Under the pieces are notes generated by a model that worked only from the letters and a program-made list of their open reading frames with translations, made no database searches and was not told where the DNA came from. From positions 102,524-166,523 of the IMG/VR virus record IMGVR_UViG_3300028797_000094: 64,000 bases of DNA; one strand, given 5' to 3'. Numbering within the stretch: the first letter of the stretch is position 1; every line of letters starts with the position of its first letter. Positions 437-14,903 of this stretch are shown here, piece after piece. This DNA comes from a virus. Taxonomy: Duplodnaviria > Heunggongvirae > Uroviricota > Caudoviricetes. The translations under genes were made by a program, and so were the position numbers.

Positions 437-490
437 TGTATGTGTAAATAAGTGAATGAACAACACTCTAAAACAGAAAGGAAAAAAATT

Positions 491-802: not shown

Positions 803-804
803 TT

Positions 805-1311: not shown

Positions 1312-1312
1312 T

Positions 1313-1609: not shown

Positions 1610-1614
1610 GCGCC

Positions 1615-1679
1615 TGAAAACGCTTTCATTCTTTTTCTTTAAAAAAACTATTTACAAATTAAAATATTTGTGCTATAAT
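1615..1679 (+). promoter_or_regulatory. early promoter cassette 2: TGAAAACGCTTTCA, then TTTACA, 17 nt, TGCTATAAT
   Basis: As cassette 1. Confidence 0.7.
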
Positions 1680-1710
1680 GTAAATGTAAAATAAATATGG
1701 AGGAATAATT

Positions 1711-2064
1711 ATGACAGATAATGAAAAAGAAATTATTATTAAATTTTTTGAATTAAAAGCAAAACAACTTATTTGTAAGATATGGTTAGCAACAAATCAA
1801 AAGCCCGGTTATGTCAATGACGAAATTAACTTAATGATGAAAGTATTAGGAATTCGAGATAAGCTTGAAAATGTAGAAAAAGAACTATTAGACTTACTTA
1901 AGTCAAATGAAAGTTTATTTACAGGAGCTGATCTTGAAGCTTTAGCAAATGAGCAAGAGTTTAAAGTTTCTATTAAAAAGCAAGAAGAGTTTTCAAAAGA
2001 ACTATTAGGTTATGAAACAACTATAGAAGATTTATTTGAAAAACTTGAAAAGCGCGGTTATTAA
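1711..2064 (+). CDS. hypothetical early protein
   Basis: ORF in track; RBS GGAGG; downstream of early promoter 1651-1679. Confidence 0.55.
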   Translation: MTDNEKEIIIKFFELKAKQLICKIWLATNQKPGYVNDEINLMMKVLGIRDKLENVEKELLDLLKSNESLFTGADLEALANEQEFKVSIKKQEEFSKELLGYETTIEDLFEKLEKRGY

Positions 2065-2078
2065 GGAGGATTAATAAT

Positions 2079-2276
2079 ATGAAAGAAACAGAAAAACAAA
2101 AAAGAATAAAAGAAGAATTGATATTATTAAATAGAAGAGTAGAAAGACTTACAGAAGAGATCTCAAACTGTATGAACGAAATTGTCGTAATTACAGAAAT
2201 TAACTTGTGCTTAGAATCAATTTTAAAATTAAAAGAAGAATATGCTTATGCAGAAAATAGAGTAAAAGGAAATTAA
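2079..2276 (+). CDS. hypothetical coiled-coil protein
   Basis: ORF in track; RBS AAGGAGG. Confidence 0.5.
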   Translation: MKETEKQKRIKEELILLNRRVERLTEEISNCMNEIVVITEINLCLESILKLKEEYAYAENRVKGN

Positions 2277-2280
2277 AATT

Positions 2281-2592
2281 ATGATGGAAGATGTAAATGC
2301 ATTTATTACAACAGTTGCTTTAACAGCTGCAAAGTTTTATAAACATGAACTAAACGCTGAAGAAAAAAAGGAATTTGATAAAGCTTATAATGATGGAGCT
2401 TATGAAGCTTTTTTTGCCAGTGTATGTAAACATAGATTGGATACAGCAGGTAGACCATCAGGTGTAGGTATGATAGTTGAACCATATAATTATTTTGATA
2501 GATATGAGTTAAAAAAATATGGAATTAGTTCAACAAAAGATTTAATAAATCAAATAGCAAATAAATATAAGTGTTATATTATGCAAGTATAA
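2281..2592 (+). CDS. hypothetical early protein
   Basis: ORF in track; followed by hairpin terminator 2593-2622. Confidence 0.5.
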   Translation: MMEDVNAFITTVALTAAKFYKHELNAEEKKEFDKAYNDGAYEAFFASVCKHRLDTAGRPSGVGMIVEPYNYFDRYELKKYGISSTKDLINQIANKYKCYIMQV

Positions 2593-2622
2593 GAAGATGT
2601 ATAAATGCTACATCTTCTTTTT
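2593..2622 (+). terminator. intrinsic terminator: hairpin AGATGTA...TACATCT plus T-run
   Basis: Dyad followed by TTTTTT. Confidence 0.55.
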
Positions 2623-2629
2623 TATTATC

Positions 2630-2960
2630 CAAAAGATGTAGATCACTTAATCCATGTTTTAGTGGTTGCTAAAGCATGATGAAGATGATGAAGATGCAGA
2701 TGCAGTAGATCTACAAGTATTGGATAAAGCTTCATCTACATCTGAAAAATTAGTGGTCGAGCATCTGGATTATCTGATACAGAGTCTGACAGAGTCTGAT
2801 AGAGTCTGACAGAGTCAAGAGAGTCTGATCTACAGACTCTGATCTGTCGATGTAGAAATTTTAGTGGTTGAGCGATCATACAGATACTGATCTGTTAAAG
2901 CGCATCAGAGCTTAAGCGCATCGGAACCTGCAAAGCGCATCGGAGTCGCCGATTAAAGTG
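2630..2960 (+). repeat. array A: three ~90-110-bp units, each with its own dyad or direct repeats and ending in (A)TTTTAGTGGTYG; GATC-rich
   Basis: TTTTAGTGGT/AATTAGTGGT at 2657, 2747, 2859; internal repeats GAGTCTGACAGAGTCTGATAGAGTCTGACAGAGTC and GCGCATCAGAGC/GCGCATCGGAAC/GCGCATCGGAGTC; 6 GATC sites. Confidence 0.6.
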
Positions 2961-3022
2961 AAAGCGCTTTCATAAAAAAGTTTAAAAAAACTATTTACAA
3001 GTTGAACTATTTATGATATAAT
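2958..3022 (+). promoter_or_regulatory. early promoter cassette 3: GTGAAAGCGCTTTCAT, then TTTACA, 16 nt, TGATATAAT
   Basis: As cassette 1. Confidence 0.65.
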
Positions 3023-3053
3023 ATTATTGTAAAATAAAAAAGGAGAATAAATT

Positions 3054-3206
3054 ATGAAACGAATTAAGTTTAAGTATCGTGATGCAATGTCTAATTTTGA
3101 ATGGCGAGAACAAGAATGTGTTTGTTCAAGTGTCGAAGAATGTATTAAATGGTATGGTCTCGGTGAAGACTGTGATTACAAAATTTTAAGTGTAGAGGAT
3201 ATTTAA
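3054..3206 (+). CDS. hypothetical small Cys-containing protein (50 aa; below track cutoff)
   Basis: AGGAGAATAAATT-ATG directly downstream of early promoter 2995-3022; TAA stop overlaps the next start. Confidence 0.45.
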   Translation: MKRIKFKYRDAMSNFEWREQECVCSSVEECIKWYGLGEDCDYKILSVEDI

Positions 3207-3207
3207 T

Positions 3208-3387
3208 ATGCCAACAAAATTTTATGTTTATTTATATCATCCTTATGGTGTTAGTTTAATTGGGTCGGGAAGTATTGAGCATTGTCAAGAAGTTAAAGCA
3301 AAGAAAGATGCTGAATGGAAACCTGGTTATATGTGGTCTACAGAAATATTAGATCATAAAATTGAAACTTATGATATGTGGGACTAA
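3208..3387 (+). CDS. hypothetical small protein (59 aa; below track cutoff)
   Basis: ATG 1 nt after the preceding stop; open to TAA; followed by hairpin GGGACT...AGTCTC. Confidence 0.4.
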   Translation: MPTKFYVYLYHPYGVSLIGSGSIEHCQEVKAKKDAEWKPGYMWSTEILDHKIETYDMWD

Positions 3388-3436
3388 AAAAAATAGTCTC
3401 ACATATTGTATAATAATATGAAGAGGTAAATGAATT

Positions 3437-3694
3437 ATGTTGAATATGAAACAATTACACAATGAACAAAAGCAATGGTTATTTGATAAAGGTTATGTTG
3501 ATGCAAAAGTCTTAGATGCTTGTGTAGAAAATGGTTGGCAAACTTATTATGTTAATTGTTTTAATTGGTTGGTAGATAATGAAGGTAATAATGGTTGGTA
3601 TCATTTAATTTTACAGTCAAAGGAAAGCGGAAACATTTCATATAATATTGAAATAAACTTAAGAAAAGACTATGAAAAATTAATGTCAATTTAA
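3437..3694 (+). CDS. hypothetical protein
   Basis: ORF in track; middle-type promoter TGTATAAT at 3407-3414; RBS GAGG. Confidence 0.5.
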   Translation: MLNMKQLHNEQKQWLFDKGYVDAKVLDACVENGWQTYYVNCFNWLVDNEGNNGWYHLILQSKESGNISYNIEINLRKDYEKLMSI

Positions 3695-3934
3695 TGTCGG
3701 AGCCCAAATTTGGCCCACACCGCGTTTAAATAAATTAAATATAAATTATAGAGTAAGAAAAGAAAATACGACACAAGTCAAATATTGGCTTGTGGCTTAT
3801 TGATAAGGTATTATTTACGAATGATACTTTATCAATATGCTCGAAAGTATTCGTTCATAGTTTTCATAATTCATTACTCTTTCATAGGAAAGGTGCTATC
3901 AGAAATGGTAGCATCTTTTCTTTTACTACACAGA

Positions 3935-4545
3935 CAGTAGATCATGTAGCTTCATCTGGATTATCCAATTTTAGTGGTGCAGACTTCTACATCGACAGAT
4001 CATGATGAATGATCTAACAGACTGTTCTGTCGATTCATCATGTTGGATTATCCAATTTTAGTGGTCGCTACGCATCAGATAGCTTTACAGTTACTGTATC
4101 TACACGCATCGTAGCGTGCAAGTAGCCGCATCGTAGCATGCAGATACACGCATCAGAACATGCAGAGTCTGTATGCAGCGTTAAAATTAGTGGTTGCAGT
4201 AGCTTTACATCATGTTGATGAAGTAGATCTACAGAGAGATCTGTCATGATGATTCATCTACATCGAGCTATTTTAGTGGTCAGATAGAGATAACTGTTAT
4301 CTACATCGATAGATCATGTAGCTTGATTCATCTACATCAGAGTCTGATGTGCTGTTTTTAGTGGTCAGAAGAATAGATCATGTAACTGATCAGTAACTGA
4401 TCTAGAGAAGATCTAGAGAAATTTGACTTCAACTTGTTACATGATCTGTACATGATCTGTTAAAGCTTTATCCAGTTTTAGTGGTTAATAGATCATGACA
4501 GTATCTGATGTAGCTGAAGATGATCTATGACTGTCAGGTTTTTTT
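3935..4545 (+). repeat. array B: six units (86-131 bp) ending in TTTTAGTGGT, two with identical 21-mer GGATTATCCAATTTTAGTGGT; recurring words CTACATCGA, TAGATCATG, GTAGATCTACAG; 14 GATC sites
   Basis: Motif ends at 3975, 4064, 4195, 4281, 4375 and 4482; each unit has its own inverted repeat, e.g. CATCGACAGATCATGATGAATG...TCTGTCGATTCATCATG. Confidence 0.6.
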
Positions 4546-4570
4546 CAATGACGTTTTCAATGAGAAATTT

Positions 4571-4646
4571 ATGAAAGCGTTTTCACAGTTCTTTTTTAAA
4601 AAAGTTTATAAAAACTATTTACAAATAAATAAGAATATGATATAAT
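4571..4646 (+). promoter_or_regulatory. early promoter cassette 4: ATGAAAGCGTTTTCAC, then TTTACA, 17 nt, TGATATAAT
   Basis: As cassette 1. Confidence 0.7.
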
Positions 4647-4708
4647 ATTATTGTAATTGTGTATAACATATTACATAAAAAAATATTTATAGAAAGTGAG
4701 TTTAAATT

Positions 4709-5164
4709 ATGAACGAAAAAACATTTAAAGATTATTTAGAAAGAGTTAAGAAAAGTTTTGATACTGAATTTACTCAAGCAGAAAAACTATCTTGTTCTGG
4801 CAACTGTGACGGAACACTTCACGTATTTGAAATCTATGCTGAAGATAAACATCCAGAAGATACTGACTTTATTGATAACTATGTTGATTACTTTGATGAA
4901 GACTGGTATCAAGAATTAGAAGATGAATATTTAGATTACTTTATGAATACTATTGATGAAATTGAAAGTCAATTAACTGATGAAGAGTTTGAAGAAATTA
5001 CAAATGACTACTATTCACCAAAAACTGATTTTGATAAGTTTGAAGAAATTATGTTAAAATGTATTTTAGCAGCACCAGAATTTAGACGTGAGATAACAAG
5101 TGAAGATCAAGAAATAGTTGCAAAAGTTTTAAGAAGTTTAAAGAAGTTTAAGAATCAAATTTAA
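4709..5164 (+). CDS. hypothetical highly acidic protein (D/E/Y-rich)
   Basis: ORF in track; downstream of early promoter 4618-4646. Confidence 0.55.
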   Translation: MNEKTFKDYLERVKKSFDTEFTQAEKLSCSGNCDGTLHVFEIYAEDKHPEDTDFIDNYVDYFDEDWYQELEDEYLDYFMNTIDEIESQLTDEEFEEITNDYYSPKTDFDKFEEIMLKCILAAPEFRREITSEDQEIVAKVLRSLKKFKNQI

Positions 5165-5178
5165 GTTGAAGTAAGATT

Positions 5179-5258
5179 TATGAAAACGTTTTCATAAATC
5201 TTTTTTTAATTTACTATTTACATTTTTCCAATAATGTGATATAATTATATTGTATAAT
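5179..5258 (+). promoter_or_regulatory. early promoter cassette 5: TATGAAAACGTTTTCATA, then TTTACA, 16 nt, TGATATAAT, immediately followed by a middle-type TTGTATAAT box (tandem -10 elements)
   Basis: As cassette 1, plus the second box at 5251-5258. Confidence 0.6.
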
Positions 5259-5278
5259 AAATAAAGGAGAGTATGAAT

Positions 5279-5689
5279 ATGAGTTTTCAAAAATGTAAAA
5301 GTTTAAAAGTAAGCGAACGTGTTTTCGATTTGGTAGCAGAAGAACTTGACTTTGATGCAAGTGAAAACCATGTTAAGATTGATGGTTGGTTTGAAACATT
5401 TAATAATTGTAGAGAACAAGGTTTAGTTTTATTTATAGATTCAGTTGATTTTGAAAATGAAAATAAAACTGAAGGATGGTTAAAAGTTTGGGTTTGTGAA
5501 GCAAGAAACTCAGATGAGATATTAGTTATAACTTCGACAGATAGAAAAGACTGTAATATTCATAATATGTTTTCAGAAGAAGCCTATAATAATAGAAAAT
5601 ATTTTGCTTACAATGAAGAACATAAAGCAGCTGATTATATTATAAATAAAGTTAGAGAAACATTCGCCGAAGAATATGGGAGGAAATAA
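5279..5689 (+). CDS. hypothetical protein (second ATG chosen for RBS spacing)
   Basis: ORF in track (5273); AAAGGAGAG lies 9 nt before 5279. Confidence 0.5.
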   Translation: MSFQKCKSLKVSERVFDLVAEELDFDASENHVKIDGWFETFNNCREQGLVLFIDSVDFENENKTEGWLKVWVCEARNSDEILVITSTDRKDCNIHNMFSEEAYNNRKYFAYNEEHKAADYIINKVRETFAEEYGRK

Positions 5690-5691
5690 CT

Positions 5692-6099
5692 ATGAGTGAT
5701 TATGTAAGATATAAAGAAATAATGTATCCAATTACAGAAGAAGATATTAAGAAGATTGGTTTCAATGATTTTGAAGATTATTGGGATACATTTAGTTGGA
5801 ACTATGAAGAGAACGATAACTTTGAAGTTCAACGACCTATTGCCAAAGTTAATGGTGAATATGTTGATAACTATTATCTTTGCTATATTTTAAAATATGA
5901 ATATGGGGCTAACTGTGATGACTTCGGTAGAAGCAGACCATTAACTACTGCTGAGCAAGAAAAGTATAAAGAAATCTTTAGCAAGAAACTTAAAGATGTT
6001 GATCCATCGAAGTTTAGATTAGTTGACTTCTGTTATTACAATGGTTGTGATGCACCCGATTATTATTTAGAAGAAGATGATTTTAATAATGAGGTTTAA
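5692..6099 (+). CDS. hypothetical acidic protein
   Basis: ORF in track; RBS GGGAGG. Confidence 0.5.
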   Translation: MSDYVRYKEIMYPITEEDIKKIGFNDFEDYWDTFSWNYEENDNFEVQRPIAKVNGEYVDNYYLCYILKYEYGANCDDFGRSRPLTTAEQEKYKEIFSKKLKDVDPSKFRLVDFCYYNGCDAPDYYLEEDDFNNEV

Positions 6100-6101
6100 T
6101 T

Positions 6102-6431
6102 ATGGCAAGACAAAAGAATTATTATGTTAACTATAAAGAAATTGAAACTGGTAAAATATCTAAAGGTTATTTAACTCAAGGTAAATGTGAAAGAAGTGCT
6201 TTGTTTACTTTAGAACTTCATATGGATAAAACTGGTTGGGAACTAAATAGAATAACTGAAATATCTGATGAAGTATATAATAGACTAAAGAACTTAGAAA
6301 GAATTAAAAAAGAAAAGGAACACCAAGAGTGGCTTGCAAATGGTGGTAGAGAAAGACTACAACAAAAGTTAGCTAACATTGCTGCTTTAAATGCAATGAT
6401 TGATGGACCTTTTGGAAAGAATGGTTTATAA
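6102..6431 (+). CDS. hypothetical protein
   Basis: ORF in track. Confidence 0.5.
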   Translation: MARQKNYYVNYKEIETGKISKGYLTQGKCERSALFTLELHMDKTGWELNRITEISDEVYNRLKNLERIKKEKEHQEWLANGGRERLQQKLANIAALNAMIDGPFGKNGL

Positions 6432-6443
6432 GGAGGACTAATT

Positions 6444-6725
6444 ATGAAGAAACTATTTATTATAATTTTATCTATTGTTTGTTTATTATTTATCTCGGCC
6501 ACTTTAACTGGTTGTAATTTAGAAGTTGTTGATACTAACTATAAGTTCGATACTGTCCATATCTATGAAACTGGAAAGTGTTATAAGATTAAAACTTGGC
6601 GAGACTTTGAAGATGGAGATCAACTACAAGTAACGTTAGAAGATGGAACAGTATTATTAATTCATTCTACTGATTGTGCATTAGTTCACGGCGACTGTGT
6701 ATTATGTAAGGATAAGGAAAAATAA
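6444..6725 (+). CDS. putative lipoprotein
   Basis: Signal peptide MKKLFIIILSIVCLLFISATLTG-C with lipobox LTGC; RBS AGGAGG. Confidence 0.55.
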   Translation: MKKLFIIILSIVCLLFISATLTGCNLEVVDTNYKFDTVHIYETGKCYKIKTWRDFEDGDQLQVTLEDGTVLLIHSTDCALVHGDCVLCKDKEK

Positions 6726-6727
6726 CT

Positions 6728-7051
6728 ATGAAGAAACTATTTAATTTCTTAGGCTTTTTATTTCAAGCAAGTTTTGTAGTAATATTAATTTTTAATTTAA
6801 TTAAAACTGGTGAAATAGAAGATCCAGGTTTTTGGGACTATGCTTATATTATAGTAGATATAATTATAATGATTCCTCTTGTTAGTTATATGGCAGTCGA
6901 ACATTTAATTACTTTTATTATGTATACTATTAGAGATGTTAAGAAAGAACTAATTAAGTTAGAAGAACAAGAAATAAAAGAAGAAAAAGAAAAAGAAGAA
7001 AAATTAAAACAATATGATTTACAATGGAAAATCTATAAAGAAGATAAATAA
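6728..7051 (+). CDS. putative membrane protein with KE-rich tail
   Basis: Two hydrophobic segments in the translation; ORF in track. Confidence 0.5.
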   Translation: MKKLFNFLGFLFQASFVVILIFNLIKTGEIEDPGFWDYAYIIVDIIIMIPLVSYMAVEHLITFIMYTIRDVKKELIKLEEQEIKEEKEKEEKLKQYDLQWKIYKEDK

Positions 7052-7075
7052 AGAAATTGAAAAGGAGACTTAAAT

Positions 7076-7267
7076 ATGTTAGTTAAAGATATTCCTGATG
7101 GAAGTATAGTATGGAATGGTTATAGTGTTTTAGGAATCAAAGGAGCGACTCTTGATCCTGTATATGATGAATGCACAGTAGTTCAAGAGCCAGGTAATCC
7201 AATTGATTTCAGTATAGTGAAGAACGATACATGGAAAGCTGTGAGAAATAGTTTAAAGAAATTTTAA
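7076..7267 (+). CDS. hypothetical protein
   Basis: ORF in track; RBS AAAGGAG. Confidence 0.5.
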   Translation: MLVKDIPDGSIVWNGYSVLGIKGATLDPVYDECTVVQEPGNPIDFSIVKNDTWKAVRNSLKKF

Positions 7268-7285
7268 AATTTTAGAAATTTATAT

Positions 7286-7293
7286 TGTATAAT
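7286..7293 (+). promoter_or_regulatory. middle-type extended -10 (TTATTGTATAATAAT) upstream of the tRNA-like/ncRNA island
   Basis: Motif TATTGTATAAT recurs ~12 times, usually right after a hairpin terminator and 30-40 nt before a start codon. Confidence 0.5.
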
Positions 7294-7299
7294 AATAAG

Positions 7300-8130
7300 T
7301 AGTTGTAGAAACACCTTTATAAAAGAATATAAGAATATGACTATCGACGGGTAGTATGACTTAGAAGGTATTATAGAGGAAGGGTTTGAAAGCGGATGCG
7401 AGGCATGTAAGGTCCTACGTCGTAGTTTGGAGCCTAAGAGAAAATTCCGGAATATCTTGTGTATCTTACGCTGGAGTCAATTCGAATTATACGGCCTACG
7501 ATTACTTCGTCGTAGTGAATCTACTATTATAGCTCAGTAGGTAGAGCGGCCGACAATTGTCGGTGATAAACAGCGCGCGACAGCCTTGGTTCGAATCCAA
7601 GTGATAGTAGATCGACTACGGCGACTGATCATCGTCATAATAAAAATTCCTCTATAAAGAAGACCTACTGGTAATGGACTTATAGACTAATGTTGAGAGT
7701 TCTGGAAGAGTCAGTAGGTTGAGGTGGGAGCCATAGCCCAGCAACATTAGGCATAAAACATGGACAGAGACCTGGCTAATAACCGGAGATGCAATGCTGT
7801 AGCTGGAGGCAGCTTAGATATATTACTACTGATATAGTATATATTGAACCAATATTCGAGGCGAAGACATTCTTCATTACTATGCTTTAAATCCCAGTAG
7901 CACGACCTGTATCAGCAGGCGAAATGTGAAATGTGAACGGTACTATTTTTATTATTAGTGGTTAGCCAACGACGAATAAGATCTTTACAACACGGTCTGT
8001 TGAATAAGCGTTGGACAGGAACTTTAGCATCTCAAAGCTAAAAAAGAATTTAGAATCTCAAAACTAAATTCCCAAGAAAGGTAAGCTCGGCCGTTAAACC
8101 TTTACACTGATATTAAGAATAGTTTTTTTA
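7300..8130 (+). ncRNA. GC-richer non-coding island downstream of middle promoter 7286-7293; no ORF in any frame; contains a tRNA-like gene and several local dyads
   Basis: Composition visibly shifted from the ~70% AT background; six-frame track empty; repeated CGTCGTAG words; ends at the early-promoter cassette 8143-8199. Confidence 0.4.
7523..7609 (+). tRNA. tRNA-like gene with atypical anticodon arm; candidate suppressor, isotype undetermined
   Basis: 7-bp acceptor stem ACTATTA/TGATAGT; canonical D-arm GCTCAGTAGGTAGAGC; canonical T-arm CTTGGTTCGAATCCAAG. The central segment is the perfect palindrome CCGACAATTGTCGG plus ~19 extra nt, so no standard 7-nt anticodon loop is visible by eye. Confidence 0.45.
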
Positions 8131-8142
8131 TTTTATTTAATC

Positions 8143-8199
8143 TATGAAAGCGTTTTCATAAAATAAATCGTTTACAAATGTTTTTATTTGTGGTATAAT
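8143..8199 (+). promoter_or_regulatory. early promoter cassette 6: TATGAAAGCGTTTTCATA, then TTTACA, 17 nt, TGGTATAAT
   Basis: As cassette 1. Confidence 0.7.
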
Positions 8200-8234
8200 A
8201 TTATTGTAAATGATTAATGAATGAGGTGTGAATT

Positions 8235-8879
8235 ATGTATATCTTTTGGATGATTGTTGTTATTCTTATTTGTGTATGGTGTATAATTGCTTACCCAGTT
8301 ATAAATGCAATTAAAACTAATAGCGAGAAAAAAAGAAAAGAAAAAGAATTTAAAAAGAATGAAGAAGAAAGGCTCGCTTATTTACAAAGCGATAAGTATA
8401 GACAAGAACAAGAAAGACTTGCACAAGAAAGAAAGCATGAAGAAGAACTTGCTAAACGTAGAGCAGCTTATGCTGAGCAACAAAGACAAAAAGCAATTGC
8501 TGCTAAGCGAGCAAGAGCTTTAGCTGAAGCTAAGTATTTAGCTGGCTTTGCTACTATGTCTGTTAAAGAATTTTTTGCTTTACGTGAAAAGAAAAGAAAT
8601 ACAGATAACTTTACTGGCGTTTACATTCTACATAATGAAACAAAGAATATGTATTATGTTGGGCAAGCAACTAAAATATTTGATAGAGTTAATAATCATT
8701 TTACGGGCAAAGGTAATGGTAATGTTTATGCAGATTATAAATATAAAAATATATTTACAATTAAACTATTGCCGTTAGCTAAAAGTGAATTTACTTCATT
8801 AGATAAAATGGAAAAGTATTATATAAATAAATTTAATGCAAATACAAAAGGTTATAATAAAACTGCTGGAAATAATTAA
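8235..8879 (+). CDS. GIY-YIG nuclease-domain protein with N-terminal TM helix and charged coiled-coil
   Basis: GVYILHNETKNMYYVGQATKIFDRVNNHF matches the GIY...YIG...R...N motif; downstream of early promoter 8171-8199. Confidence 0.55.
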   Translation: MYIFWMIVVILICVWCIIAYPVINAIKTNSEKKRKEKEFKKNEEERLAYLQSDKYRQEQERLAQERKHEEELAKRRAAYAEQQRQKAIAAKRARALAEAKYLAGFATMSVKEFFALREKKRNTDNFTGVYILHNETKNMYYVGQATKIFDRVNNHFTGKGNGNVYADYKYKNIFTIKLLPLAKSEFTSLDKMEKYYINKFNANTKGYNKTAGNN

Positions 8880-8912
8880 AATCAAAAGTCTATGAAATAC
8901 TAGGCTTTTTAT

Positions 8913-8920
8913 TGTATAAT
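8913..8920 (+). promoter_or_regulatory. middle-type promoter TGTATAAT
   Basis: Same motif. Confidence 0.45.
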
Positions 8921-8938
8921 AGATAAGGAGTTTTTATT

Positions 8939-9472
8939 ATGTTTAAAAAATTTTTTAATTGGCTAATACAAAATATAAAAGATATATTTATAGAAAGTGT
9001 TTGTTTAATTAGTTTTAGTATAAGTTACAGTATTTGGCAAGATGATTTATTATTATTTGGTATTATTGTAAGTGGTGCAGCTTTGCTTATATCAGGTATA
9101 ATATATTTAGTTAAACATTTTAAGTATTATAAAAAAATATGTAGTGAAGAATATAAGAGTAAATTTAAAGATATATATTCTATTTATGATAGTTTATTAA
9201 AAGACGAAAAAAATTTATTTTATAACTTATTTAGAAAACACAAAATAGCCAAGACTACCAGAGATTTTCCAGATCCTGCCTGGTCGAGTAAATTTAGAGA
9301 AATTACAAAATTAGACTTAGAAGATGATGATAGTAATAAAATTATTAACTGTCAATTAATTGCAGATGAAACAGGAGCATACTATCTTTTTAGTTTAAGA
9401 AATGGTATAAGAAGATATTACACTAAAAGACTTATTAAAAAAGTTATAAAATATTATAATAAAAATATATAA
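8939..9472 (+). CDS. hypothetical membrane protein
   Basis: ORF in track; N-terminal hydrophobic segments; middle promoter 8913-8920. Confidence 0.45.
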   Translation: MFKKFFNWLIQNIKDIFIESVCLISFSISYSIWQDDLLLFGIIVSGAALLISGIIYLVKHFKYYKKICSEEYKSKFKDIYSIYDSLLKDEKNLFYNLFRKHKIAKTTRDFPDPAWSSKFREITKLDLEDDDSNKIINCQLIADETGAYYLFSLRNGIRRYYTKRLIKKVIKYYNKNI

Positions 9473-9478
9473 ATTCAT

Positions 9479-9486
9479 TGTATAAT
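9479..9486 (+). promoter_or_regulatory. middle-type promoter TGTATAAT
   Basis: Same motif. Confidence 0.45.
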
Positions 9487-9518
9487 AATATAGATATAAA
9501 TTTTATTAGGAGGCATTT

Positions 9519-10298
9519 ATGATAAATAAAACTATTTTAAACAAAAAACCTAAACAAGGATATGGCTTTGTTTATAGATATTTCTATGAGCCAGAACCAA
9601 ATTCAGACTATGTAGGAAGCACTGAATATTCTTTAAAAGAACGCGCAGGTAAGTATGGTAAAGAATATGATAAGTGTCCAGGTATATCTGATCTAATACA
9701 TAGAGTCGGATATATTAATTTAACAGTAGAGATACTTGGTGAATATCCTATAGCTGAGTTAGAACAAAAAGAACGTTACTGGCAAGAACATTTTAATGCA
9801 GTAGAGATCGGATATAATCAAAAGTATAGTAGTGAGCATAAAAAGATTACAGTTCGTTATGGTGAAACTTATTATCCAAATAACACTATGTCTAAATATA
9901 TCAAGTCAGATGATTCAACTGCTATATTTGATAGCTTTATTTATGAAGAACTATTTGCTAACGACAAACGAGAGATTGGTCCTACAAATAGAAAAGACTA
10001 TTATGATAGTCCTAAGAGTAGAATGAAAGGCTATGCTCCACTTACTTTAAATAGTGAGGATGGTAATCATACTGTCTTACAAAGAATAGCTGAATATGTT
10101 TTAGGCTATTATAAAGTAGGTATAGTTCGTTTTGGCAGTCTTTTAAACAGAGTCTGTACATTAGATAATATTGTTATTAGTGGAACTAATAAAACTTTAT
10201 TAGATGTCTGGAAAGAAAATGGTTATAAGCCAGCAGTAAAATTAAATACTGTTGCAAACAAAGTAAAATCAACATATATTCAAACAAGTTTATTTTAA
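9519..10298 (+). CDS. GIY-YIG homing-endonuclease-like protein
   Basis: GFVYRYFYEPEPNSDYVGSTEYSLKERAGKYG (GIY-YIG core); RBS AGGAGG; middle promoter 9479-9486. Confidence 0.55.
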   Translation: MINKTILNKKPKQGYGFVYRYFYEPEPNSDYVGSTEYSLKERAGKYGKEYDKCPGISDLIHRVGYINLTVEILGEYPIAELEQKERYWQEHFNAVEIGYNQKYSSEHKKITVRYGETYYPNNTMSKYIKSDDSTAIFDSFIYEELFANDKREIGPTNRKDYYDSPKSRMKGYAPLTLNSEDGNHTVLQRIAEYVLGYYKVGIVRFGSLLNRVCTLDNIVISGTNKTLLDVWKENGYKPAVKLNTVANKVKSTYIQTSLF

Positions 10299-10378
10299 TA
10301 TTTAATTCAATAAATGCGGCTTGAAATTTAACCCAGGTCGCATTTTTATTTTTCTTTAAATAAATTATATATATTTAT

Positions 10379-10386
10379 TGTATAAT
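10379..10386 (+). promoter_or_regulatory. middle-type promoter TGTATAAT
   Basis: Same motif. Confidence 0.45.
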
Positions 10387-10409
10387 ATAATATAAAGAGG
10401 TATATTATT

Positions 10410-10784
10410 ATGTTTAAAAAGAAAACTAAAAAAGATTTAGCTAAAGAAGAACCTGTTAATAATGATGTAGAACAAGAAGAAGAAATTGTTAAAAGAACTT
10501 GTCCTGATGCTAATACTGCTATTACTATTGTTAGAGATGCTATTAGAGATTATGTTTCATGTATCTGTAATATAAGTAAACAACATAGAACTGATATTAA
10601 TACTTGTGTGCAATATTTAATTGATTATGTTAAAGAACATAATGAAATAGATACTGTTATTAATAATATTGATGATAATAGTCTAATTCAATATTCTAAT
10701 ACTTTTGAGCGCAATGGTTATGTTATTGATATTAAGATTAATAAAAGTTGTGAGGCAAAACAAAAGGAAGAGCATAATGATTAA
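10410..10784 (+). CDS. hypothetical protein
   Basis: ORF in track; middle promoter 10379-10386; RBS AGAGG. Confidence 0.5.
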   Translation: MFKKKTKKDLAKEEPVNNDVEQEEEIVKRTCPDANTAITIVRDAIRDYVSCICNISKQHRTDINTCVQYLIDYVKEHNEIDTVINNIDDNSLIQYSNTFERNGYVIDIKINKSCEAKQKEEHND

Positions 10785-11151
10785 ACCTGGTCAAAAGAGA
10801 AAAACATTATATACTAATGCATTTGATTATATAAACAAAGAATTTGTATATAAAACAATAAAAAAGAATTACTATGTTATTGACTGTAGAAGTTATACTG
10901 AGGGCTATTATGGTTTCCATGATTCTACTTGGGCTATTGATGAATGTCAGTGGCTATTTACTGAAGAAGACTTGGATAAAGTAAATGATTATAATAGTGA
11001 ATCTATGTATATCCTTTATTCTGAAAGACCTTATAGTAAAGAAGAAATGCAAGATAAAGTTAAAGAATTTTTAGATGCTAAGAAACAAAGATATATCAAT
11101 AGAATTGATGAAATTATTAATCAGGTTTTAAAAGCAACTACTAATGTTTAG
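10777..11151 (+). CDS. hypothetical protein (start moved to ATG with RBS AAGGAAG)
   Basis: Same frame as track ORF 10705..11151; overlaps the preceding stop by 8 nt. Confidence 0.45.
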   Translation: MIKPGQKRKTLYTNAFDYINKEFVYKTIKKNYYVIDCRSYTEGYYGFHDSTWAIDECQWLFTEEDLDKVNDYNSESMYILYSERPYSKEEMQDKVKEFLDAKKQRYINRIDEIINQVLKATTNV

Positions 11152-11164
11152 AGGGAACTAAATT

Positions 11165-12280
11165 ATGGATTATAAAGGAATTAAAATTTATAATAAAATA
11201 ACAATAGTAGAAAAGACTATGACCACTGAAGATGGATATAACTGGCGTGGTAGAACAGTTAATCAAGGTTATGTAGTAGATACAGGAAATAAGAAGATGC
11301 TTGATACTGCTTTACGCTGGGCTGAGTGGACTTACTATGATCGAGACCTTAATGATAAATATTGGGAAGCTAGAAATAAATTTGGCCATGATAGTAAAGA
11401 AGCAAAAGAAGCTGAAGCTGCTTATGATGCCACTAGAAAAAAGATAGAAGGAATAACTCATGAATATGACAATGGAACATTTACTATTACTTTATCTGAA
11501 TCTGCCAGTGGCTCTAGTCAAGGTGGAAAGTTATCTTTCTGGAATTGTATCATTACAGCTCCTGATGGAAATAGCTTTTTAGTGGGTATTAACTCAGAAC
11601 TATTATTACATCTACTTATGTCAACTACTTTTATTAATGGAACTTGTCAAGAAAAAGTTTGGTTAGGTAGAATTGGTGGGACTCAAGTTGGTGTATTCAC
11701 TGAAGCTATGGAAGATTTTAAACAAGCTAAGTTAGATGAAGAACAAAGAACTGCTGTTAAGAATGCAAGTAATAAATATGTTCCTGGTGATATAGTAGGA
11801 ACACTAAAAGAGAAACAATTATATCTTGGAAGTATTTATAAATATTATTCTATTGAACAAGGTTATAGATATGCTGATAAATATATTGTTATATATGATA
11901 AACCAAAACTAGTTCATATTTTTAGAGGCTTCTATAAACATTGGAAAACAGGTGAAGAAGAATTAGATAGTTATTTTAATGAAACACTTACTAAGCCTAA
12001 ACGACTTGTACTTGATCATATGGATTTAGATGAGTCTGTAGCTGACTATGTTAGTAATTATACTAAACAAAAATTTGATAATTCATTAACTGATAAAAAT
12101 AAATATTCATGGTATGCAGCAGAAAATTTATTGATGTATGGCACTGATGATACTTGCGATAAAGAAGCAATTAAAAAATCATTGTCTGACTTATATGATA
12201 AATGTGAGCGACCTTATTGGACGTTAGACCGTGAATATACATTTTTAACTGAAGAAAAATATAAAGAGATGTTTAAATAA
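11165..12280 (+). CDS. hypothetical protein (371 aa); uses TGG for all Trp
   Basis: ORF in track; RBS GAGGGAA. Confidence 0.55.
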   Translation: MDYKGIKIYNKITIVEKTMTTEDGYNWRGRTVNQGYVVDTGNKKMLDTALRWAEWTYYDRDLNDKYWEARNKFGHDSKEAKEAEAAYDATRKKIEGITHEYDNGTFTITLSESASGSSQGGKLSFWNCIITAPDGNSFLVGINSELLLHLLMSTTFINGTCQEKVWLGRIGGTQVGVFTEAMEDFKQAKLDEEQRTAVKNASNKYVPGDIVGTLKEKQLYLGSIYKYYSIEQGYRYADKYIVIYDKPKLVHIFRGFYKHWKTGEEELDSYFNETLTKPKRLVLDHMDLDESVADYVSNYTKQKFDNSLTDKNKYSWYAAENLLMYGTDDTCDKEAIKKSLSDLYDKCERPYWTLDREYTFLTEEKYKEMFK

Positions 12281-12323
12281 AAACATCTTTTTTTAATTAT
12301 TTTAATTTAAAGTAATTTTTTAT

Positions 12324-12331
12324 TGTATAAT
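12324..12331 (+). promoter_or_regulatory. middle-type promoter TGTATAAT
   Basis: Same motif. Confidence 0.45.
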
Positions 12332-12361
12332 AATATAGAAGAAATATGAAAGGAAATAATA

Positions 12362-12589
12362 ATGAATAGTAAAGAATTAGTAGAAAGACTTATTAATATT
12401 CTAACTGAGGCAGCTGATCGTAGAGTTGCTGTATATAAAGTTGATGAACATGGTAATGTTGAAATTACTGGTTATAGAATTCCTGACTTAGGAGAAACAC
12501 TTAAATTTATTACTGATAGACTATATGCTATTAAAGATGAAATAGAAACTTCTGAAAATATTGCACAAGATTTAGAAGATATTAAATGA
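12362..12589 (+). CDS. hypothetical protein
   Basis: ORF in track; middle promoter 12324-12331. Confidence 0.5.
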   Translation: MNSKELVERLINILTEAADRRVAVYKVDEHGNVEITGYRIPDLGETLKFITDRLYAIKDEIETSENIAQDLEDIK

Positions 12590-12605
12590 GAAATGGAACA
12601 TAACA

Positions 12606-13073
12606 ATGATTAAGATTAAAAGAAATCCAAATGGAGATAGCAGAACAGTTACTAAGCCAGCGTCTTTTAGTGACTTTCATAAAGCTAATGTCGATCATAT
12701 TAAAGATGTTAATGCTGTGATGAAAGCTCTTGCCAGTAGATTAAGAGCTCAAGGAAAGATTCATGATAACACTAAATTAAAATATGAAAATGAATTCTAT
12801 GAAAATTATTTAGATGATATTATAAATAAAAAAGATTTTGTATCTAACACTTGGTATCAAAAACATATTCATGAAGAAAAACATCATCCATTTAGTTATT
12901 GCCATGAAGATATAAATCTATTAGATATTATAGAAACTATTGTTGACTGTACTTGTGCAGGTAAAGCAAGAAGTGGTGAAATAAGACCATTAGAATTCAA
13001 TGAAAAAATACTAAAGAAAGCTGTTACTAATACAGTTAAACTAATAGATGAAATGACTGAGGTCGAAGAATAA
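12606..13073 (+). CDS. hypothetical protein, possible HD-domain phosphohydrolase
   Basis: FHKANVDH...GKIHDNTK...HIHEEKHH resembles the H...HD...H pattern; weak. Confidence 0.3.
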   Translation: MIKIKRNPNGDSRTVTKPASFSDFHKANVDHIKDVNAVMKALASRLRAQGKIHDNTKLKYENEFYENYLDDIINKKDFVSNTWYQKHIHEEKHHPFSYCHEDINLLDIIETIVDCTCAGKARSGEIRPLEFNEKILKKAVTNTVKLIDEMTEVEE

Positions 13074-13369
13074 TGAAATATACAGTTAAAGTTAAACAAA
13101 TCATTAGTAGCAATGGAAAATATAATTCAAAAAGATATAATAAAGTTTCTAAAAGAATAATTAGATTTTTAGTAAATAATAAATTTAGTTTTTCTATAGG
13201 TCTAACTCCAAGATATACTGTAAATTGTAAGCAAGCTGAAAATTATATTGAAGTTTATGAAAAAAACATACTTCCATTTGCAGCAAATAATAAGGAATCT
13301 GAAGAGAATGAAAGATTAAATAAAATTCTTTATGATAAACTTTATAGAATGTCAAAAGGAAGAAGATAA
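13073..13369 (+). CDS. hypothetical basic protein
   Basis: ORF in track. Confidence 0.45.
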   Translation: MKYTVKVKQIISSNGKYNSKRYNKVSKRIIRFLVNNKFSFSIGLTPRYTVNCKQAENYIEVYEKNILPFAANNKESEENERLNKILYDKLYRMSKGRR

Positions 13370-13563
13370 TGACTAAGACTGAGATTGTAGAAAAAATAAA
13401 AGAACAAACAGACCATTATATTTGGGCAAGTGATATAGATTCATATATTAAAGGCTATTTAGATGCATTGTGCAATGCTTATGAAATCACTTGGGATGAT
13501 AGAATAGAAATTGAAAATATGCTAAATGAAACAGAGGAGATAGAAGATGAAGAAGAAAATTAA
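13369..13563 (+). CDS. hypothetical protein
   Basis: ORF in track. Confidence 0.45.
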   Translation: MTKTEIVEKIKEQTDHYIWASDIDSYIKGYLDALCNAYEITWDDRIEIENMLNETEEIEDEEEN

Positions 13564-13735
13564 AGACTTAACATTAGATGAAGTACACAATCTATGTCAA
13601 AAGTTTGAAAGCTGTTCAGATTGTCCGTTATGTGTTGGTGGAGATGAATATAGAGGAATGCTTCTATGTGATCCTGAACCACTTAAAGACCCAAAAGAAT
13701 TTAATAAAGAAATTGAGGTAGAAGATGAAAGATAG
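13547..13735 (+). CDS. small Cys-rich (zinc-ribbon-like) protein
   Basis: CQKFESCSDCPLC...LLC pattern. Confidence 0.4.
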   Translation: MKKKIKDLTLDEVHNLCQKFESCSDCPLCVGGDEYRGMLLCDPEPLKDPKEFNKEIEVEDER

Positions 13736-13997
13736 AAAGATATTAGTAGAAGTTACTCCAGAAGAATATGAAAAGATAGTCGCTGGAAATTTAGATGCTA
13801 CTTTAGAAACATTTTCTACTGAGCAGTTAGTCAATGAATTAACAAAAAGAACTGAAGATAAACGTGTTGTATCAGCAGGTTATAATATGGCAAGTATGGC
13901 AAGTAAAGAGATACTTGTTGGAACAATAGAATTAAGTAAAGATAGAGCACTAAGTGAGATACAAGTATTTGAATGGAGTTTAAAATTTAAATGGTAG
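13725..13997 (+). CDS. hypothetical protein
   Basis: ORF in track. Confidence 0.45.
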   Translation: MKDRKILVEVTPEEYEKIVAGNLDATLETFSTEQLVNELTKRTEDKRVVSAGYNMASMASKEILVGTIELSKDRALSEIQVFEWSLKFKW

Positions 13998-14881: not shown

Positions 14882-14903
14882 ATAGAAAGGAAACTTAATT
14901 ATT

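What the first reader, a model, noticed from the sequence alone, without database searches (positions are those of the whole stretch)
7523..7609. tRNA-like gene with canonical D/T arms but a palindromic, non-canonical anticodon arm: candidate UGA suppressor
The 87-nt element has a 7-bp acceptor stem, a textbook D-arm (GCTCAGTAGGTAGAGC) and a textbook T-arm (CTTGGTTCGAATCCAAG). Between them lies the perfect 14-nt palindrome CCGACAATTGTCGG plus ~19 nt of G/C-rich sequence. This does not fold into a 5-bp stem with a 7-nt loop by eye and contains no obvious TCA anticodon. It sits in a middle-promoter-driven non-coding island, exactly where a recoding phage would be expected to place its suppressor tRNA so that late genes only become translatable after middle expression. 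It could be an unusual suppressor (long variable arm, 8-9-nt loop, or modified decoding), a tRNA-like regulatory structure, or a pseudo-tRNA.
Basis: seen in the sequence. Interest (0 to 1): 0.7.

Follow-up and report, generated by a model that had tools for sequence, protein, structure and literature searches.

The report
tRNA mimic inside large phage RNA
The tRNA-shaped element is real but has no anticodon loop, so it is a structural or processing tRNA mimic on a conserved helix inside an ~830-base non-coding RNA island of a UGA-recoded jumbo phage, not the phage's UGA suppressor.

Summary
Window 7523-7609 (+) scores 47.5 bits on the Rfam tRNA model (E 5e-7). It has a 7-bp acceptor stem and canonical D and T arms. 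In place of an anticodon arm it has a 6-bp hairpin with an AAUU tetraloop, followed by 20 extra bases.

The suppressor reading fails on four counts:
- ARAGORN finds no anticodon.
- The ends are sealed by a further 14 base pairs of leader-trailer helix.
- There is no encoded CCA.
- In six related phage lineages the anticodon/variable region is replaced wholesale, and none carries UCA. The acceptor stem, T stem and extension helix are kept by compensatory changes.

The element is one domain of a GC-rich (40-49% against a 20-29% background), promoter-to-U-run non-coding island at about 7300-8130. The island is conserved and syntenic in relatives. It ends in a 172-nt module (7947-8118) that also occurs alone inside phage tRNA arrays. 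Nothing except the tRNA model matches Rfam, so this is not GOLLD, ROOL or YrlA.

Best reading: a non-decoding tRNA mimic, most likely an RNase P / RNase Z punctuation site, otherwise a displayed tRNA-shaped handle like the tRNAs in GOLLD linkers.

TGA recoding of late genes is real. No suppressor tRNA lies in the window or within 10 kb beyond either end.

The parts
7264..7293 (+). Promoter-like site (TTAAAA, 18-nt spacer, TATAAT; the -10 hexamer is at 7288-7293) at the start of the island
   Evidence: Consensus scan. The same 'TTGTATAAT' motif precedes the homologous islands in L001, L022, L006, L025, L032 and L033. Inferred, not shown to be active.
7303..7500 (+). 5' domain of the island, closed by UGUAG/CUACR. 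It includes an inner hairpin with a GACG loop and the invariant block 7473-7499 (GGAGUCAAUUCGAAUUAUACGGCCUAC).
   Evidence: RNAalifold on 5 relatives: 28 pairs, 4 of them compensatory. The block is invariant in 5 sequences.
7507..7522 (+). 5' strand of the extension helix ('ES'): UCGUC GUAGU ga AUCU
   Evidence: Pairs with 7609-7624. The helix is 99% paired in 5 sequences. Across 8 cassettes, 8 of 21 pairs have compensatory changes and the 2x2 internal loop is invariant.
7523..7609 (+). tRNA-like domain: 7-bp acceptor stem, D arm and T arm with G18G19 / UUCGAAU elbow nucleotides, discriminator A, no CCA
   Evidence: Rfam RF00005 at 47.5 bits. ARAGORN 'tRNA-???'. The T stem has compensatory changes in 3 of 5 pairs.
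7549..7564 (+). Hairpin in the anticodon-arm position: GCCGAC-AAUU-GUCGGU (6 bp plus a tetraloop). It contains the 14-nt palindrome and has no anticodon loop.
   Evidence: Sequence and MFE/centroid fold. The position is hypervariable among relatives.
7565..7584 (+). 20-nt over-long 'variable region', GAUAAACAGCGCGCGACAGC, with the GCGCGC palindrome at 7573-7578
   Evidence: Sequence. Treated as an insertion by the tRNA model. Specific to the W/L025 lineage.
7610..7624 (+). 3' strand of the extension helix: GAU cg ACUAC GGCGA
7625..7946 (+). Middle domain of the island. It is GC-rich and specific to the W/L006/L011 lineage; L001/L022 carry an unrelated middle domain.
   Evidence: About 90% identical in L006 and L011, but with no covariation to test a fold. 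No similarity to the L001 middle. Structure not established.
7947..8118 (+). Conserved 3' module: closing stem P1, GGUUAG, P2, a P3 hairpin with loop UUUACAAsAC, a variable hairpin, and the invariant AAAGGUAAnnnCGGCCGUyAAACCUUUA
   Evidence: Own covariance model R1 gives 159.8 bits here and 18 copies in the loci. 22 of 32 pairs have compensatory changes; 86% of cells are paired against 44% or less in the slid controls.
8120..8135 (+). U-rich run (UAGUUUUUUUAUUUU) directly after P1 of the module; probable 3' end of the transcript
   Evidence: Sequence. The same run follows island-type modules in L001, L006, L011, L016/L022 and L025, but not array-type modules. The terminator scan did not flag it, so this is inferred.

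Best explanation
The element is a non-decoding tRNA mimic. It sits at the tip of a conserved 21-bp coaxial helix made of the 7-bp acceptor stem plus 14 bp of leader-trailer pairing, interrupted by an invariant 2x2 internal loop. That helix is one domain of a primary transcript of about 830 nt (about 7300-8130). The transcript is a string of independently closed RNA domains: a 5' domain, the tRNA-like domain on its helix, a middle domain, and a conserved 3' module.

Most likely mechanism (inferred, not shown): host tRNA-processing enzymes read the acceptor/T-arm minihelix and the D/T elbow. These are exactly the parts under selection. RNase P would cut at 7522/7523. RNase Z would cut after A7609, because no CCA is encoded. 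The cuts would punctuate the transcript into a 5' RNA and a 3' RNA that carries the conserved module. This copies what flanking genuine tRNAs do for the same module in phage tRNA arrays. The anticodon arm is irrelevant to these enzymes, so it is free to drift or be swapped.

Confidence breaks down as follows. That this is an embedded, non-decoding tRNA mimic of a larger phage ncRNA: about 0.85. That its job is RNase P/Z punctuation: about 0.4, which is the confidence given for this entry.
For: - tRNA-like fold.
- No anticodon loop; the arm is 6 bp plus a tetraloop.
- Selected parts: acceptor plus extension helix is 99% paired with compensatory changes, and the T stem has five different but always complementary sequences with an invariant UUCGAWU loop.
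- The anticodon/variable region is unrelated in W/L025, L001, L022, L006 and L033.
- Island evidence: a GC-rich non-coding stretch of 40-49% against 20-29%, a promoter-like site, a U-run, and syntenic homologues behind the same lipoprotein gene.
- The 3' module sits between genuine tRNAs in the arrays of L002/L024/L026, L003, L012 and L020/L031. In L003 an orphan 5' strand of the extension helix is fused to a real tRNA-Asp directly upstream of the module. So a real tRNA and the mimic occupy the same slot.
- Most genuine tRNAs read in these arrays encode CCA; the mimic does not.
- Precedents: M. smegmatis YrlA, with a 7-bp acceptor-like stem continuing into a longer stem, is cut by RNase P in vitro and is cleaved and CCA-tailed in vivo (PMC4201824). 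mascRNA needs an extended acceptor stem formed by leader-trailer pairing for RNase P maturation of MALAT1 (PMC8457004).
Against: - There are no expression or RNA-end data; cleavage is pure inference.
- The helix, including its acceptor-like part, is also kept in two cassettes whose cargo is not tRNA-shaped (L032 and the second cassette of L025). The helix therefore has a role that does not need a tRNA shape.
- A fully paired leader and trailer can slow bacterial RNase P (my own knowledge, not tested here).
- In the window the conserved module lies about 340 nt downstream, not adjacent.
- L022 has a mismatched acceptor stem and L006 a weakened D stem, which looks like some decay.
- There are only six independent lineages, so the covariation statistics are modest.
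Confidence: 0.4

Rival explanations
1. The mimic is an unprocessed structural or display domain. It stays in the intact large RNA and presents a tRNA elbow or minihelix as a handle for a partner: the ribosome, a tRNA-binding or tRNA-modifying protein, or another RNA domain. This would resemble the phage tRNAs sometimes found in the linker of GOLLD RNA. The palindromic loops of the variable arm could mediate symmetric RNA-RNA contacts.
For: - The extension helix is conserved in all 8 cassettes whatever the cargo, as expected of an architectural helix that displays a variable tip.
- The organisation parallels GOLLD: a variable 5' part, a universally conserved 3' part, a phage setting, links to tRNA islands, and tRNAs in the linker (PMC12286853).
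- Palindromes occur in the cargo loops: ACAAUUGU and GCGCGC in W, ACAUGU in L006, CCCGGG in L033. Palindrome-to-palindrome switching marks intermolecular kissing loops in OLE and GOLLD.
Against: - There is no match to GOLLD or ROOL models even at E<=10.
- L001 and L022 have no palindromic loop, and the invariant CGGCCG of the module is broken in L006.
- The palindrome argument is post hoc.
- No partner is identified.
Confidence: 0.3
2. The element is a decaying tRNA gene, a relic of a tRNA array that degenerated into this island. It is carried along without any function of its own.
For: - tRNA fragments and recombination scars litter the relatives: an extra T-arm-like hairpin in L006, a lone T-arm fragment after the second cassette of L025, and the orphan helix strand fused to tRNA-Asp in L003.
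- The tRNA shape is lost entirely in L032 and in L025 cassette 2.
- The acceptor stem is degenerate in L022.
- The anticodon region is destroyed in every lineage.
Against: - Compensatory substitutions keep the T stem (five sequence versions) and the acceptor stem paired across lineages whose neighbouring sequence has diverged or been replaced.
- The elbow nucleotides (GG in the D loop, UUCGAWU in the T loop) are invariant.
- The tRNA model still scores 46-47 bits in W and L001.
Confidence: 0.2
3. The element is an unusual functional decoder: a UGA suppressor, a quadruplet or long-loop reader, or an intron-containing tRNA.
For: The phage does read TGA as sense in late genes, and no ordinary suppressor tRNA lies in the window or within 10 kb of either end.
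Against: - There is no 7-nt loop, no U33 and no UCA anywhere between the D and T arms.
- Opening the hairpin gives a 6-nt loop (CAAUUG) or an 8-nt loop (ACAAUUGU) without tRNA loop signatures.
- Close relatives change the 'anticodon' freely: UGU in L001 and UGA in L022 on the same arm, both with G33. Others lack an arm altogether.
- The ends are sealed and no CCA is encoded.
- ARAGORN cannot type it.
Confidence: 0.02
4. The element is a bacterial-type Y RNA (YrlA family), in which a tRNA-like module sits on a stem that binds a Ro60/Rsr protein.
For: The general layout is the same: a tRNA-like D/T/acceptor module with a reduced anticodon arm, closed by a long stem. YrlA RNAs do occur in phages (PMC4201824).
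Against: - The Rfam YrlA model RF02553 does not hit the element even at E<=10.
- The GNCGAAN0-1G motif is absent by eye.
- No TROVE/Rsr gene was found next to the island or among the 15 ORFs scanned with Pfam.
- The element is embedded in an 830-nt RNA, whereas a Y RNA is a stand-alone RNA of about 110 nt.
Confidence: 0.03

Closest known systems
GOLLD RNA (Rfam RF01998), with phage tRNAs embedded in its linker region
   Same: A large (~0.8 kb) phage-borne structured RNA. It has a variable 5' part and a strongly conserved 3' part, an evolutionary link to tRNA islands, and a tRNA-shaped insert inside the RNA (PMC12286853; PMC5737381).
   Different: There is no sequence or structure match to the GOLLD or ROOL covariance models even at E<=10. 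The conserved 3' part here is only 94-193 nt across the copies found and also exists as a stand-alone small RNA. The insert here cannot decode. Multimerisation is untested.
YrlA-type bacterial/phage Y RNAs (Rfam RF02553)
   Same: A tRNA mimic with D arm, T arm and acceptor-like stem, a reduced anticodon arm, and both ends continuing into a long helix. One member with a 7-bp acceptor stem is an RNase P and CCA-adding-enzyme substrate (PMC4201824).
   Different: No model match. No Rsr/Ro60 gene nearby. No GNCGAA motif. Here the mimic is an internal domain of a much larger RNA.
mascRNA / menRNA tRNA-like elements of MALAT1 and NEAT1
   Same: A tRNA-like element without a functional anticodon, embedded in a long non-coding transcript. 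Its acceptor stem is extended by leader-trailer pairing. It serves as an RNase P/Z cleavage signal that defines the ends of the flanking RNA (PMC8457004).
   Different: Those are eukaryotic nuclear RNAs and are evolutionarily unrelated. Processing of the phage element is only inferred.
Stable non-tRNA RNAs co-transcribed and co-processed with phage tRNA clusters (T4 species 1 and 2 RNAs; recalled from memory, not checked here)
   Same: Small structured RNAs of unknown function lying inside a phage tRNA cluster and released by the tRNA-processing machinery. That is the situation of the 3' module in L002, L003, L012 and L020.
   Different: No sequence comparison was made. The resemblance is one of context only.

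Membership tests
Functional (decoding) tRNA, including Sup-UCA | Cloverleaf recognised by a tRNA covariance model | tested here: met
   RF00005 at 47.5 bits, E 4.9e-07
Functional (decoding) tRNA, including Sup-UCA | 5-bp anticodon stem with a 7-nt loop (U33, purine 37) carrying an assignable anticodon; UCA for a UGA suppressor | tested here: not met
   ARAGORN gives 'tRNA-???' with a 2-base anticodon. The fold gives 6 bp plus an AAUU tetraloop. No UCA lies between the D and T arms. No relative has UCA.
Functional (decoding) tRNA, including Sup-UCA | The anticodon arm is conserved among orthologues | tested here: not met
   The region is unrelated in W/L025, L001, L022, L006 and L033.
Functional (decoding) tRNA, including Sup-UCA | 3' CCA end, encoded as in most of the genuine tRNAs read in the related phage arrays | tested here: not met
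   A7609 is followed by GAUCG, which pairs with the leader. Most of the array tRNAs whose sequences I read end in CCA; one (L017 Met) does not.
Functional (decoding) tRNA, including Sup-UCA | Aminoacylation and suppression activity | not testable with these tools
   Needs an acid-urea northern or aminoacylation assay and a UGA reporter.
GOLLD RNA | Match to the family covariance model (RF01998) | tested here: not met
   No hit at gathering score or at E<=10 on 7290-8130, on 6500-9000, or in the related loci.
GOLLD RNA | Phage or prophage location near tRNA islands, a conserved 3' region with a variable 5' region, and occasional tRNA in the linker | tested here: met
   The island layout and the 3' module inside tRNA arrays, set against the description in PMC12286853. 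This is resemblance in organisation only.
GOLLD RNA | Homo-oligomeric nanocage | not testable with these tools
   Needs cryo-EM or SEC-MALS of the transcript.
ROOL RNA | Match to the family covariance model (Rfam ROOL family) | tested here: not met
   All 4227 Rfam families were scanned. Only tRNA hit.
YrlA / bacterial Y RNA | Match to RF02553 | tested here: not met
   No hit on the element at E<=10. The only weak RF02553 hits were on genuine tRNA pairs in L002.
YrlA / bacterial Y RNA | Encoded next to a Ro60/Rsr (TROVE) gene | tested here: not met
   The neighbours are a lipoprotein, membrane proteins and GIY-YIG nucleases. Five large ORFs scanned gave ligase, NrdD, methyltransferase and NUDIX hits, and one gave no Pfam hit. 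The rest of the 237-kb genome was not readable.
tmRNA | tRNA-like domain formed by the 5' and 3' ends, plus a tag reading frame | tested here: not met
   ARAGORN finds no tmRNA. The 'GCC AAC GAC GAA UAA' in the 3' module loses its frame through 1-nt indels in L001 and L002, and the stretch covaries as helix P2.
Theta / HDV-like ribozyme next to phage tRNAs | HDV-like fold with its cleavage site within 5 nt of a tRNA 3' end | tested here: not met
   No Rfam HDV-type hit. The sequence after A7609 is the paired 3' strand of the extension helix. Family description from PMC10879173.

The most novel reading that the evidence does not exclude
The island may be a previously undescribed class of large, modular phage RNA, functionally akin to GOLLD and ROOL but unrelated in sequence. 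In this reading a conserved 21-bp helix acts as a 'cargo slot' that displays exchangeable tips: a tRNA mimic, or other hairpins. The palindromic loops (ACAAUUGU/GCGCGC, ACAUGU, CCCGGG) would drive symmetric RNA-RNA assembly. The universally conserved 3' module, otherwise a stand-alone RNA in tRNA arrays, would be the functional core. Because it is found in stop-codon-recoded jumbo phages, it could even interface with translation.
Probability: 0.25. Interest if true: 0.8.

Novelty: new variant of a known kind. Interest (0 to 1): 0.55.

Why it matters
It removes a false lead: this is not the UGA suppressor of a recoded phage. The real suppressor must be looked for in the unread ~170 kb of the genome.

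It also uncovers an unannotated RNA locus, with three points of interest:
- A tRNA mimic is kept by selection for its acceptor, T arm and elbow only. That is a bacterial-virus counterpart of mascRNA and YrlA.
- A conserved helix carries interchangeable cargo.
- A strongly covarying 94-193-nt RNA module is absent from Rfam and from 185,579 reference genomes, yet recurs in phage tRNA arrays directly after tRNA-Gly(UCC).

Large phage RNAs near tRNA islands (GOLLD, ROOL) still have no known function. An independent, simpler and modular example gives a new handle on what such RNAs do and on how phages use the tRNA shape outside decoding.

Tried and rejected
**Searches that found nothing**
- Rfam at E<=10 on the island alone, on 6500-9000, and on three related loci. 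Nothing but tRNA matched, so GOLLD, ROOL, YrlA, HDV-like ribozymes, group I introns and riboswitches are rejected.
- blastn of the island against 50,697 deposited phage genomes gave no match.
- Exact and degenerate DNA patterns in GTDB species genomes gave 0 hits for the module and 0 for the T-arm-plus-helix junction.

**Readings rejected**
- tmRNA-like reading of 'GCC AAC GAC GAA UAA' in the 3' module. The frame is not conserved and the stretch is a covarying helix.
- Alternative anticodon arms built from the 20-nt extra segment, working back from the T stem. There is no complementary 5' strand and no UCA (by reading).
- Long-range pairing of the invariant block UUAUACGGCC (7487-7496) with the module loop GGCCGUUAA, and of GGAAGGGUUUGA with UUAAACCUUU. 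The L006 substitutions are not compensated, and the stand-alone modules lack those partners.
- Symmetric kissing by the module's CGGCCG. It is broken in L006 (CAGCCG).

**Inconclusive or limited attempts**
- Origin from a particular tRNA isotype. The best identities to 47 genuine phage tRNAs are only 0.67-0.75 and are spread over Ile, Trp, Thr, Met and Asn.
- Middle-domain fold. Three sequences about 90% identical show no covariation, so no conclusion is possible.
- A link between the module and recoding. The short loci are uninformative; apparent TAG-sense gains in L023 and L031 arise because those loci are mostly tRNA genes.
- Walking the genome for a suppressor tRNA. Only 10 kb beyond each window end could be fetched, and it holds no tRNA.
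Full report
**1. The observation**

The sequence at 7523-7609 (+) is as described.
- A 7-bp acceptor stem, ACUAUUA/UGAUAGU, followed by U8 and A9.
- A D arm GCUC-AGUAGGUA-GAGC carrying G18G19.
- A T arm CUUGG-UUCGAAU-CCAAG, and discriminator A7609.
- Between the arms: G, then GCCGAC-AAUU-GUCGGU (7549-7564, holding the 14-nt palindrome at 7550-7563), then the 20 nt GAUAAACAGCGCGCGACAGC.

The Rfam tRNA model scores 47.5 bits (gathering score 29; E 4.9e-07 for the window). It treats the extra segment as an insertion. ARAGORN reports 'tRNA-???' with a two-base anticodon. This is the only tRNA-type feature in the 64 kb.

**2.

The flanks pair with each other. UCGUC-GUAGU-ga-AUCU (7507-7522) pairs with A-GAU-cg-ACUAC-GGCGA (7609-7624). 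This lengthens the acceptor stem into a 21-bp coaxial helix with one 2x2 internal loop. With the flanks, the segment folds exactly this way at -48.8 kcal/mol, z -5.8, and 0 of 200 shuffles fold as well.

The element lies in a non-coding stretch of about 7300-8130 whose G+C is 40-49%, against 20-29% around it. The stretch starts after a promoter-like TTAAAA-18-TATAAT (7264-7293) and ends in a U-run (8120-8135). No Rfam family other than tRNA matches this stretch. That held at E<=10 and with the laxest filters. No deposited phage genome resembles it.

**3. Relatives**

I anchored on neighbouring proteins and on conserved DNA words. This recovered homologous, syntenic islands behind the same small lipoprotein gene and the same TTGTATAAT motif:
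- L001 (= L004 = L021), from a 223-kb IMG/VR contig.
- L022, L006, L025, L032 and L033.

Across them the extension helix plus acceptor stem is 99% paired. In a table of all eight cassettes, 8 of the 21 pairs show compensatory changes, and the internal loop (G,A opposite C,G) never varies. The T stem exists in five different, always complementary versions: CUUGG/CCAAG, ACAGG/CCUGU, AUCGG/CCGGU, ACUGG/CCAGU and GUCAG/CUGAC. All have an invariant UUCGAWU loop and GG in the D loop.

The segment between the D and T arms, by contrast, is unrelated from lineage to lineage:
- W and L025: the palindromic hairpin plus GCGCGC.
- L001: a hairpin GGUGC-UGUGUAA-GCAUC with G33. ARAGORN calls it Thr-UGU, but it folds as a 10-bp stem with a 5-nt loop.
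- L022: the same arm with one base changed, called Ser-UGA, plus a duplication.
- L006: a 4-bp stem with the loop ACAUGUAA and a second T-arm-like hairpin. ARAGORN finds no tRNA.
- L033: a 3-bp mini-arm and a long hairpin with a CCCGGG loop. Again no tRNA is called.

Two cassettes keep the helix but carry non-tRNA cargo. L032 has a 42-nt AU-rich insert, and the second cassette of L025 has an insert of about 170 nt. No version has UCA.

**4. Why it is not a suppressor**

A decoder needs a 7-nt anticodon loop that is conserved among orthologues. It also needs a free or processable CCA end. Here the loop is absent, and the 'anticodon' changes or vanishes among close relatives. The ends are sealed by a selected helix, and no CCA is encoded. 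Most of the genuine tRNAs I read in the related phage arrays do end in encoded CCA.

Reading TGA as sense raises ORF coverage from 46 to 66 kb. It also fuses same-frame ORF fragments into 1181-, 2417- and 892-aa genes with TGA far outnumbering TGG, for example 31 TGA against 10 TGG in 47836-55089. ORFs in the first 15 kb, where the island lies, contain almost no in-frame TGA. Public gene calls give the same 2417-aa product. So a suppressor, or some other UGA-reading device, must exist. It is not in the window or in the 10 kb beyond either end. The remaining ~170 kb of the genome could not be read.

**5. The rest of the island**

The 5' domain (7303-7500) is closed by UGUAG/CUACR. It contains a covarying hairpin and a 27-nt invariant block.

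The middle domain (7625-7946) is shared only with L006 and L011. It shows no informative variation. L001 and L022 carry a different, equally GC-rich middle.

The 3' module (7947-8118) is the most conserved part. A covariance model built here finds 18 copies, 16 of them distinct. Of its 32 pairs, 22 have compensatory changes. In the fitted alignment 86% of cells are paired, against 44% or less when partners are slid. Its 3' segment AAAGGUAAnnnCGGCCGUyAAACCUUUA is essentially invariant.

The same module occurs on its own inside dense tRNA arrays of other large phage contigs, directly after tRNA-Gly(UCC) and usually before tRNA-Met or tRNA-Pro (L002/L024/L026, L012, L020/L031). In L003 it follows tRNA-Asp instead, and in L023 a degenerate tRNA-Gly-like stretch. 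It also occurs as minimal 94-114-nt versions behind their own TATAAT (L013, L014). It is absent from 185,579 reference bacterial and archaeal genomes.

In L003 an orphan 5' strand of the extension helix, with the first bases of the mimic, is fused at AGCUC to a genuine tRNA-Asp that directly precedes the module. These islands and tRNA arrays have therefore exchanged parts.

**6. Mechanism**

Three things are shown:
- A tRNA-shaped domain whose acceptor stem, T arm and elbow are under selection, while its anticodon side is not.
- A conserved helix that seals it.
- Membership in a multi-domain non-coding island that is evolutionarily tied to tRNA arrays.

The function is inferred. The selected parts are the determinants read by RNase P, RNase Z and the CCA-adding enzyme. 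I therefore think the domain most likely serves as a punctuation mark that lets host tRNA-processing enzymes cut the primary transcript, as flanking tRNAs do for the module in arrays. The probability is about 0.4.

There are precedents. M. smegmatis YrlA has a 7-bp acceptor-like stem continuing into a longer stem. It is cut by RNase P in vitro and is cleaved and CCA-tailed in vivo (PMC4201824). mascRNA requires an extended acceptor stem from leader-trailer pairing (PMC8457004).

The main rival, at about 0.3, is that the RNA stays intact and the helix displays the tRNA shape as a handle or cargo. This would be like the tRNAs in GOLLD linkers (PMC12286853). The retention of the helix in cassettes with non-tRNA cargo favours this rival. 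A neutral relic (about 0.2) is disfavoured by the compensatory changes. A Y RNA (about 0.03) fails the model, motif and neighbourhood tests. A decoder (about 0.02) fails the anticodon-loop, orthologue-conservation and CCA-end tests.

**7. Comparison and novelty**

The island works like, or is organised like, three known kinds: GOLLD with embedded tRNAs, YrlA, and mascRNA. It is a member of none of them; the membership table lists each test.

The tRNA mimic itself is a new variant of a known kind. The island, the cargo helix and the 3' module are not in Rfam and appear undescribed. I found nothing matching in the papers searched, though that search was not exhaustive.

**8. Limits**
- There are only six independent lineages.
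- Alignments fitted to a model lean towards that model.
- There are no expression data.
- The biome is unverified. The accession series and the anaerobic NrdD gene at 33388-35571 suggest an anaerobic gut or rumen source.

Noticed in passing
window 7947-8118 (+); also L002 4515-4687, L003 3135-3327 (-), L012 1417-1583 (-), L020 5386-5519, L013 1337-1450 (-), L014 1117-1210, L017 376-489 (-), L018 261-425: A strongly covarying RNA module of 94-193 nt: P1, P2 and P3 plus the invariant AAAGGUAAnnnCGGCCGUyAAACCUUUA. It is not in Rfam. It occurs alone in phage tRNA arrays directly after tRNA-Gly(UCC), and as mini-genes with their own TATAAT. It is absent from GTDB reference genomes. Function unknown.
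   Followed up: partly
window 15155-17032, 19434-24224 (-), 43792-47337, 47836-55089, 56370-59048 versus 1-14900: TGA is a sense codon, most likely Trp since TGA far outnumbers TGG, in late or structural genes only. ORFs in the first ~15 kb carry almost no in-frame TGA and end in TAA or TAG. No suppressor tRNA lies in the window or within 10 kb either side.
   Followed up: partly
window 8235-8879 and 9519-10298 (+): Two GIY-YIG-type nuclease ORFs lie directly downstream of the RNA island. The first matches Pfam PF01541 at 2.8e-08 and has an N-terminal membrane or coiled segment; the second is GIY-YIG by motif only. They are absent at this position in L001, so they are probably mobile homing-endonuclease-like insertions.
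   Followed up: no
L025 1552-800 (-) and L003 3800-3410 (-): A shared insertion follows the tRNA mimic: a 64-aa ORF (MRKRKDNYILKNKQGLYLSNTYK...) plus a GC-rich RNA-like stretch. In L025 a second copy of the extension helix then follows, carrying a ~170-nt non-tRNA cargo. In L003 only an orphan 5' strand remains, fused to a real tRNA-Asp.
   Followed up: partly
window 7480-7489, 7550-7563, 7573-7578, 8088-8093; L006 about 6655-6665; L033 about 1255-1260: There is an unusual density of palindromes in loops and conserved single strands: AAUUCGAAUU (invariant), CCGACAAUUGUCGG, GCGCGC, CGGCCG (invariant except in L006), ACAUGU in L006 and CCCGGG in L033. Symmetric kissing contacts as in OLE and GOLLD are possible, but the evidence is mixed.
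   Followed up: partly
L001 775-1030 and L022 3150-3400: A different ~250-nt GC-rich (45-49%) middle domain replaces the window's middle domain in the L001/L022 lineage. It is conserved between those two, has no Rfam match, and was not analysed further.
   Followed up: no
window 55390-56040 (+) and 47836-55089 (+): A 216-aa ORF has a weak Mtd_N (DGR major tropism determinant) hit, according to public precomputed Pfam marks. It sits next to a 2417-aa LRR/Flg_new protein. This may be a diversity-generating or tail-fibre region.
   Followed up: no
window 7620-7637: GGCGA (the 3' end of the extension helix) can alternatively pair with a second UCGUC at 7633-7637, forming a local 5-bp hairpin with the loop CUGAUCA. 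The same is possible in L006 (GACGA/UCGUC). This may be an alternative conformation competing with the outer part of the helix. It is absent in L001.
   Followed up: no
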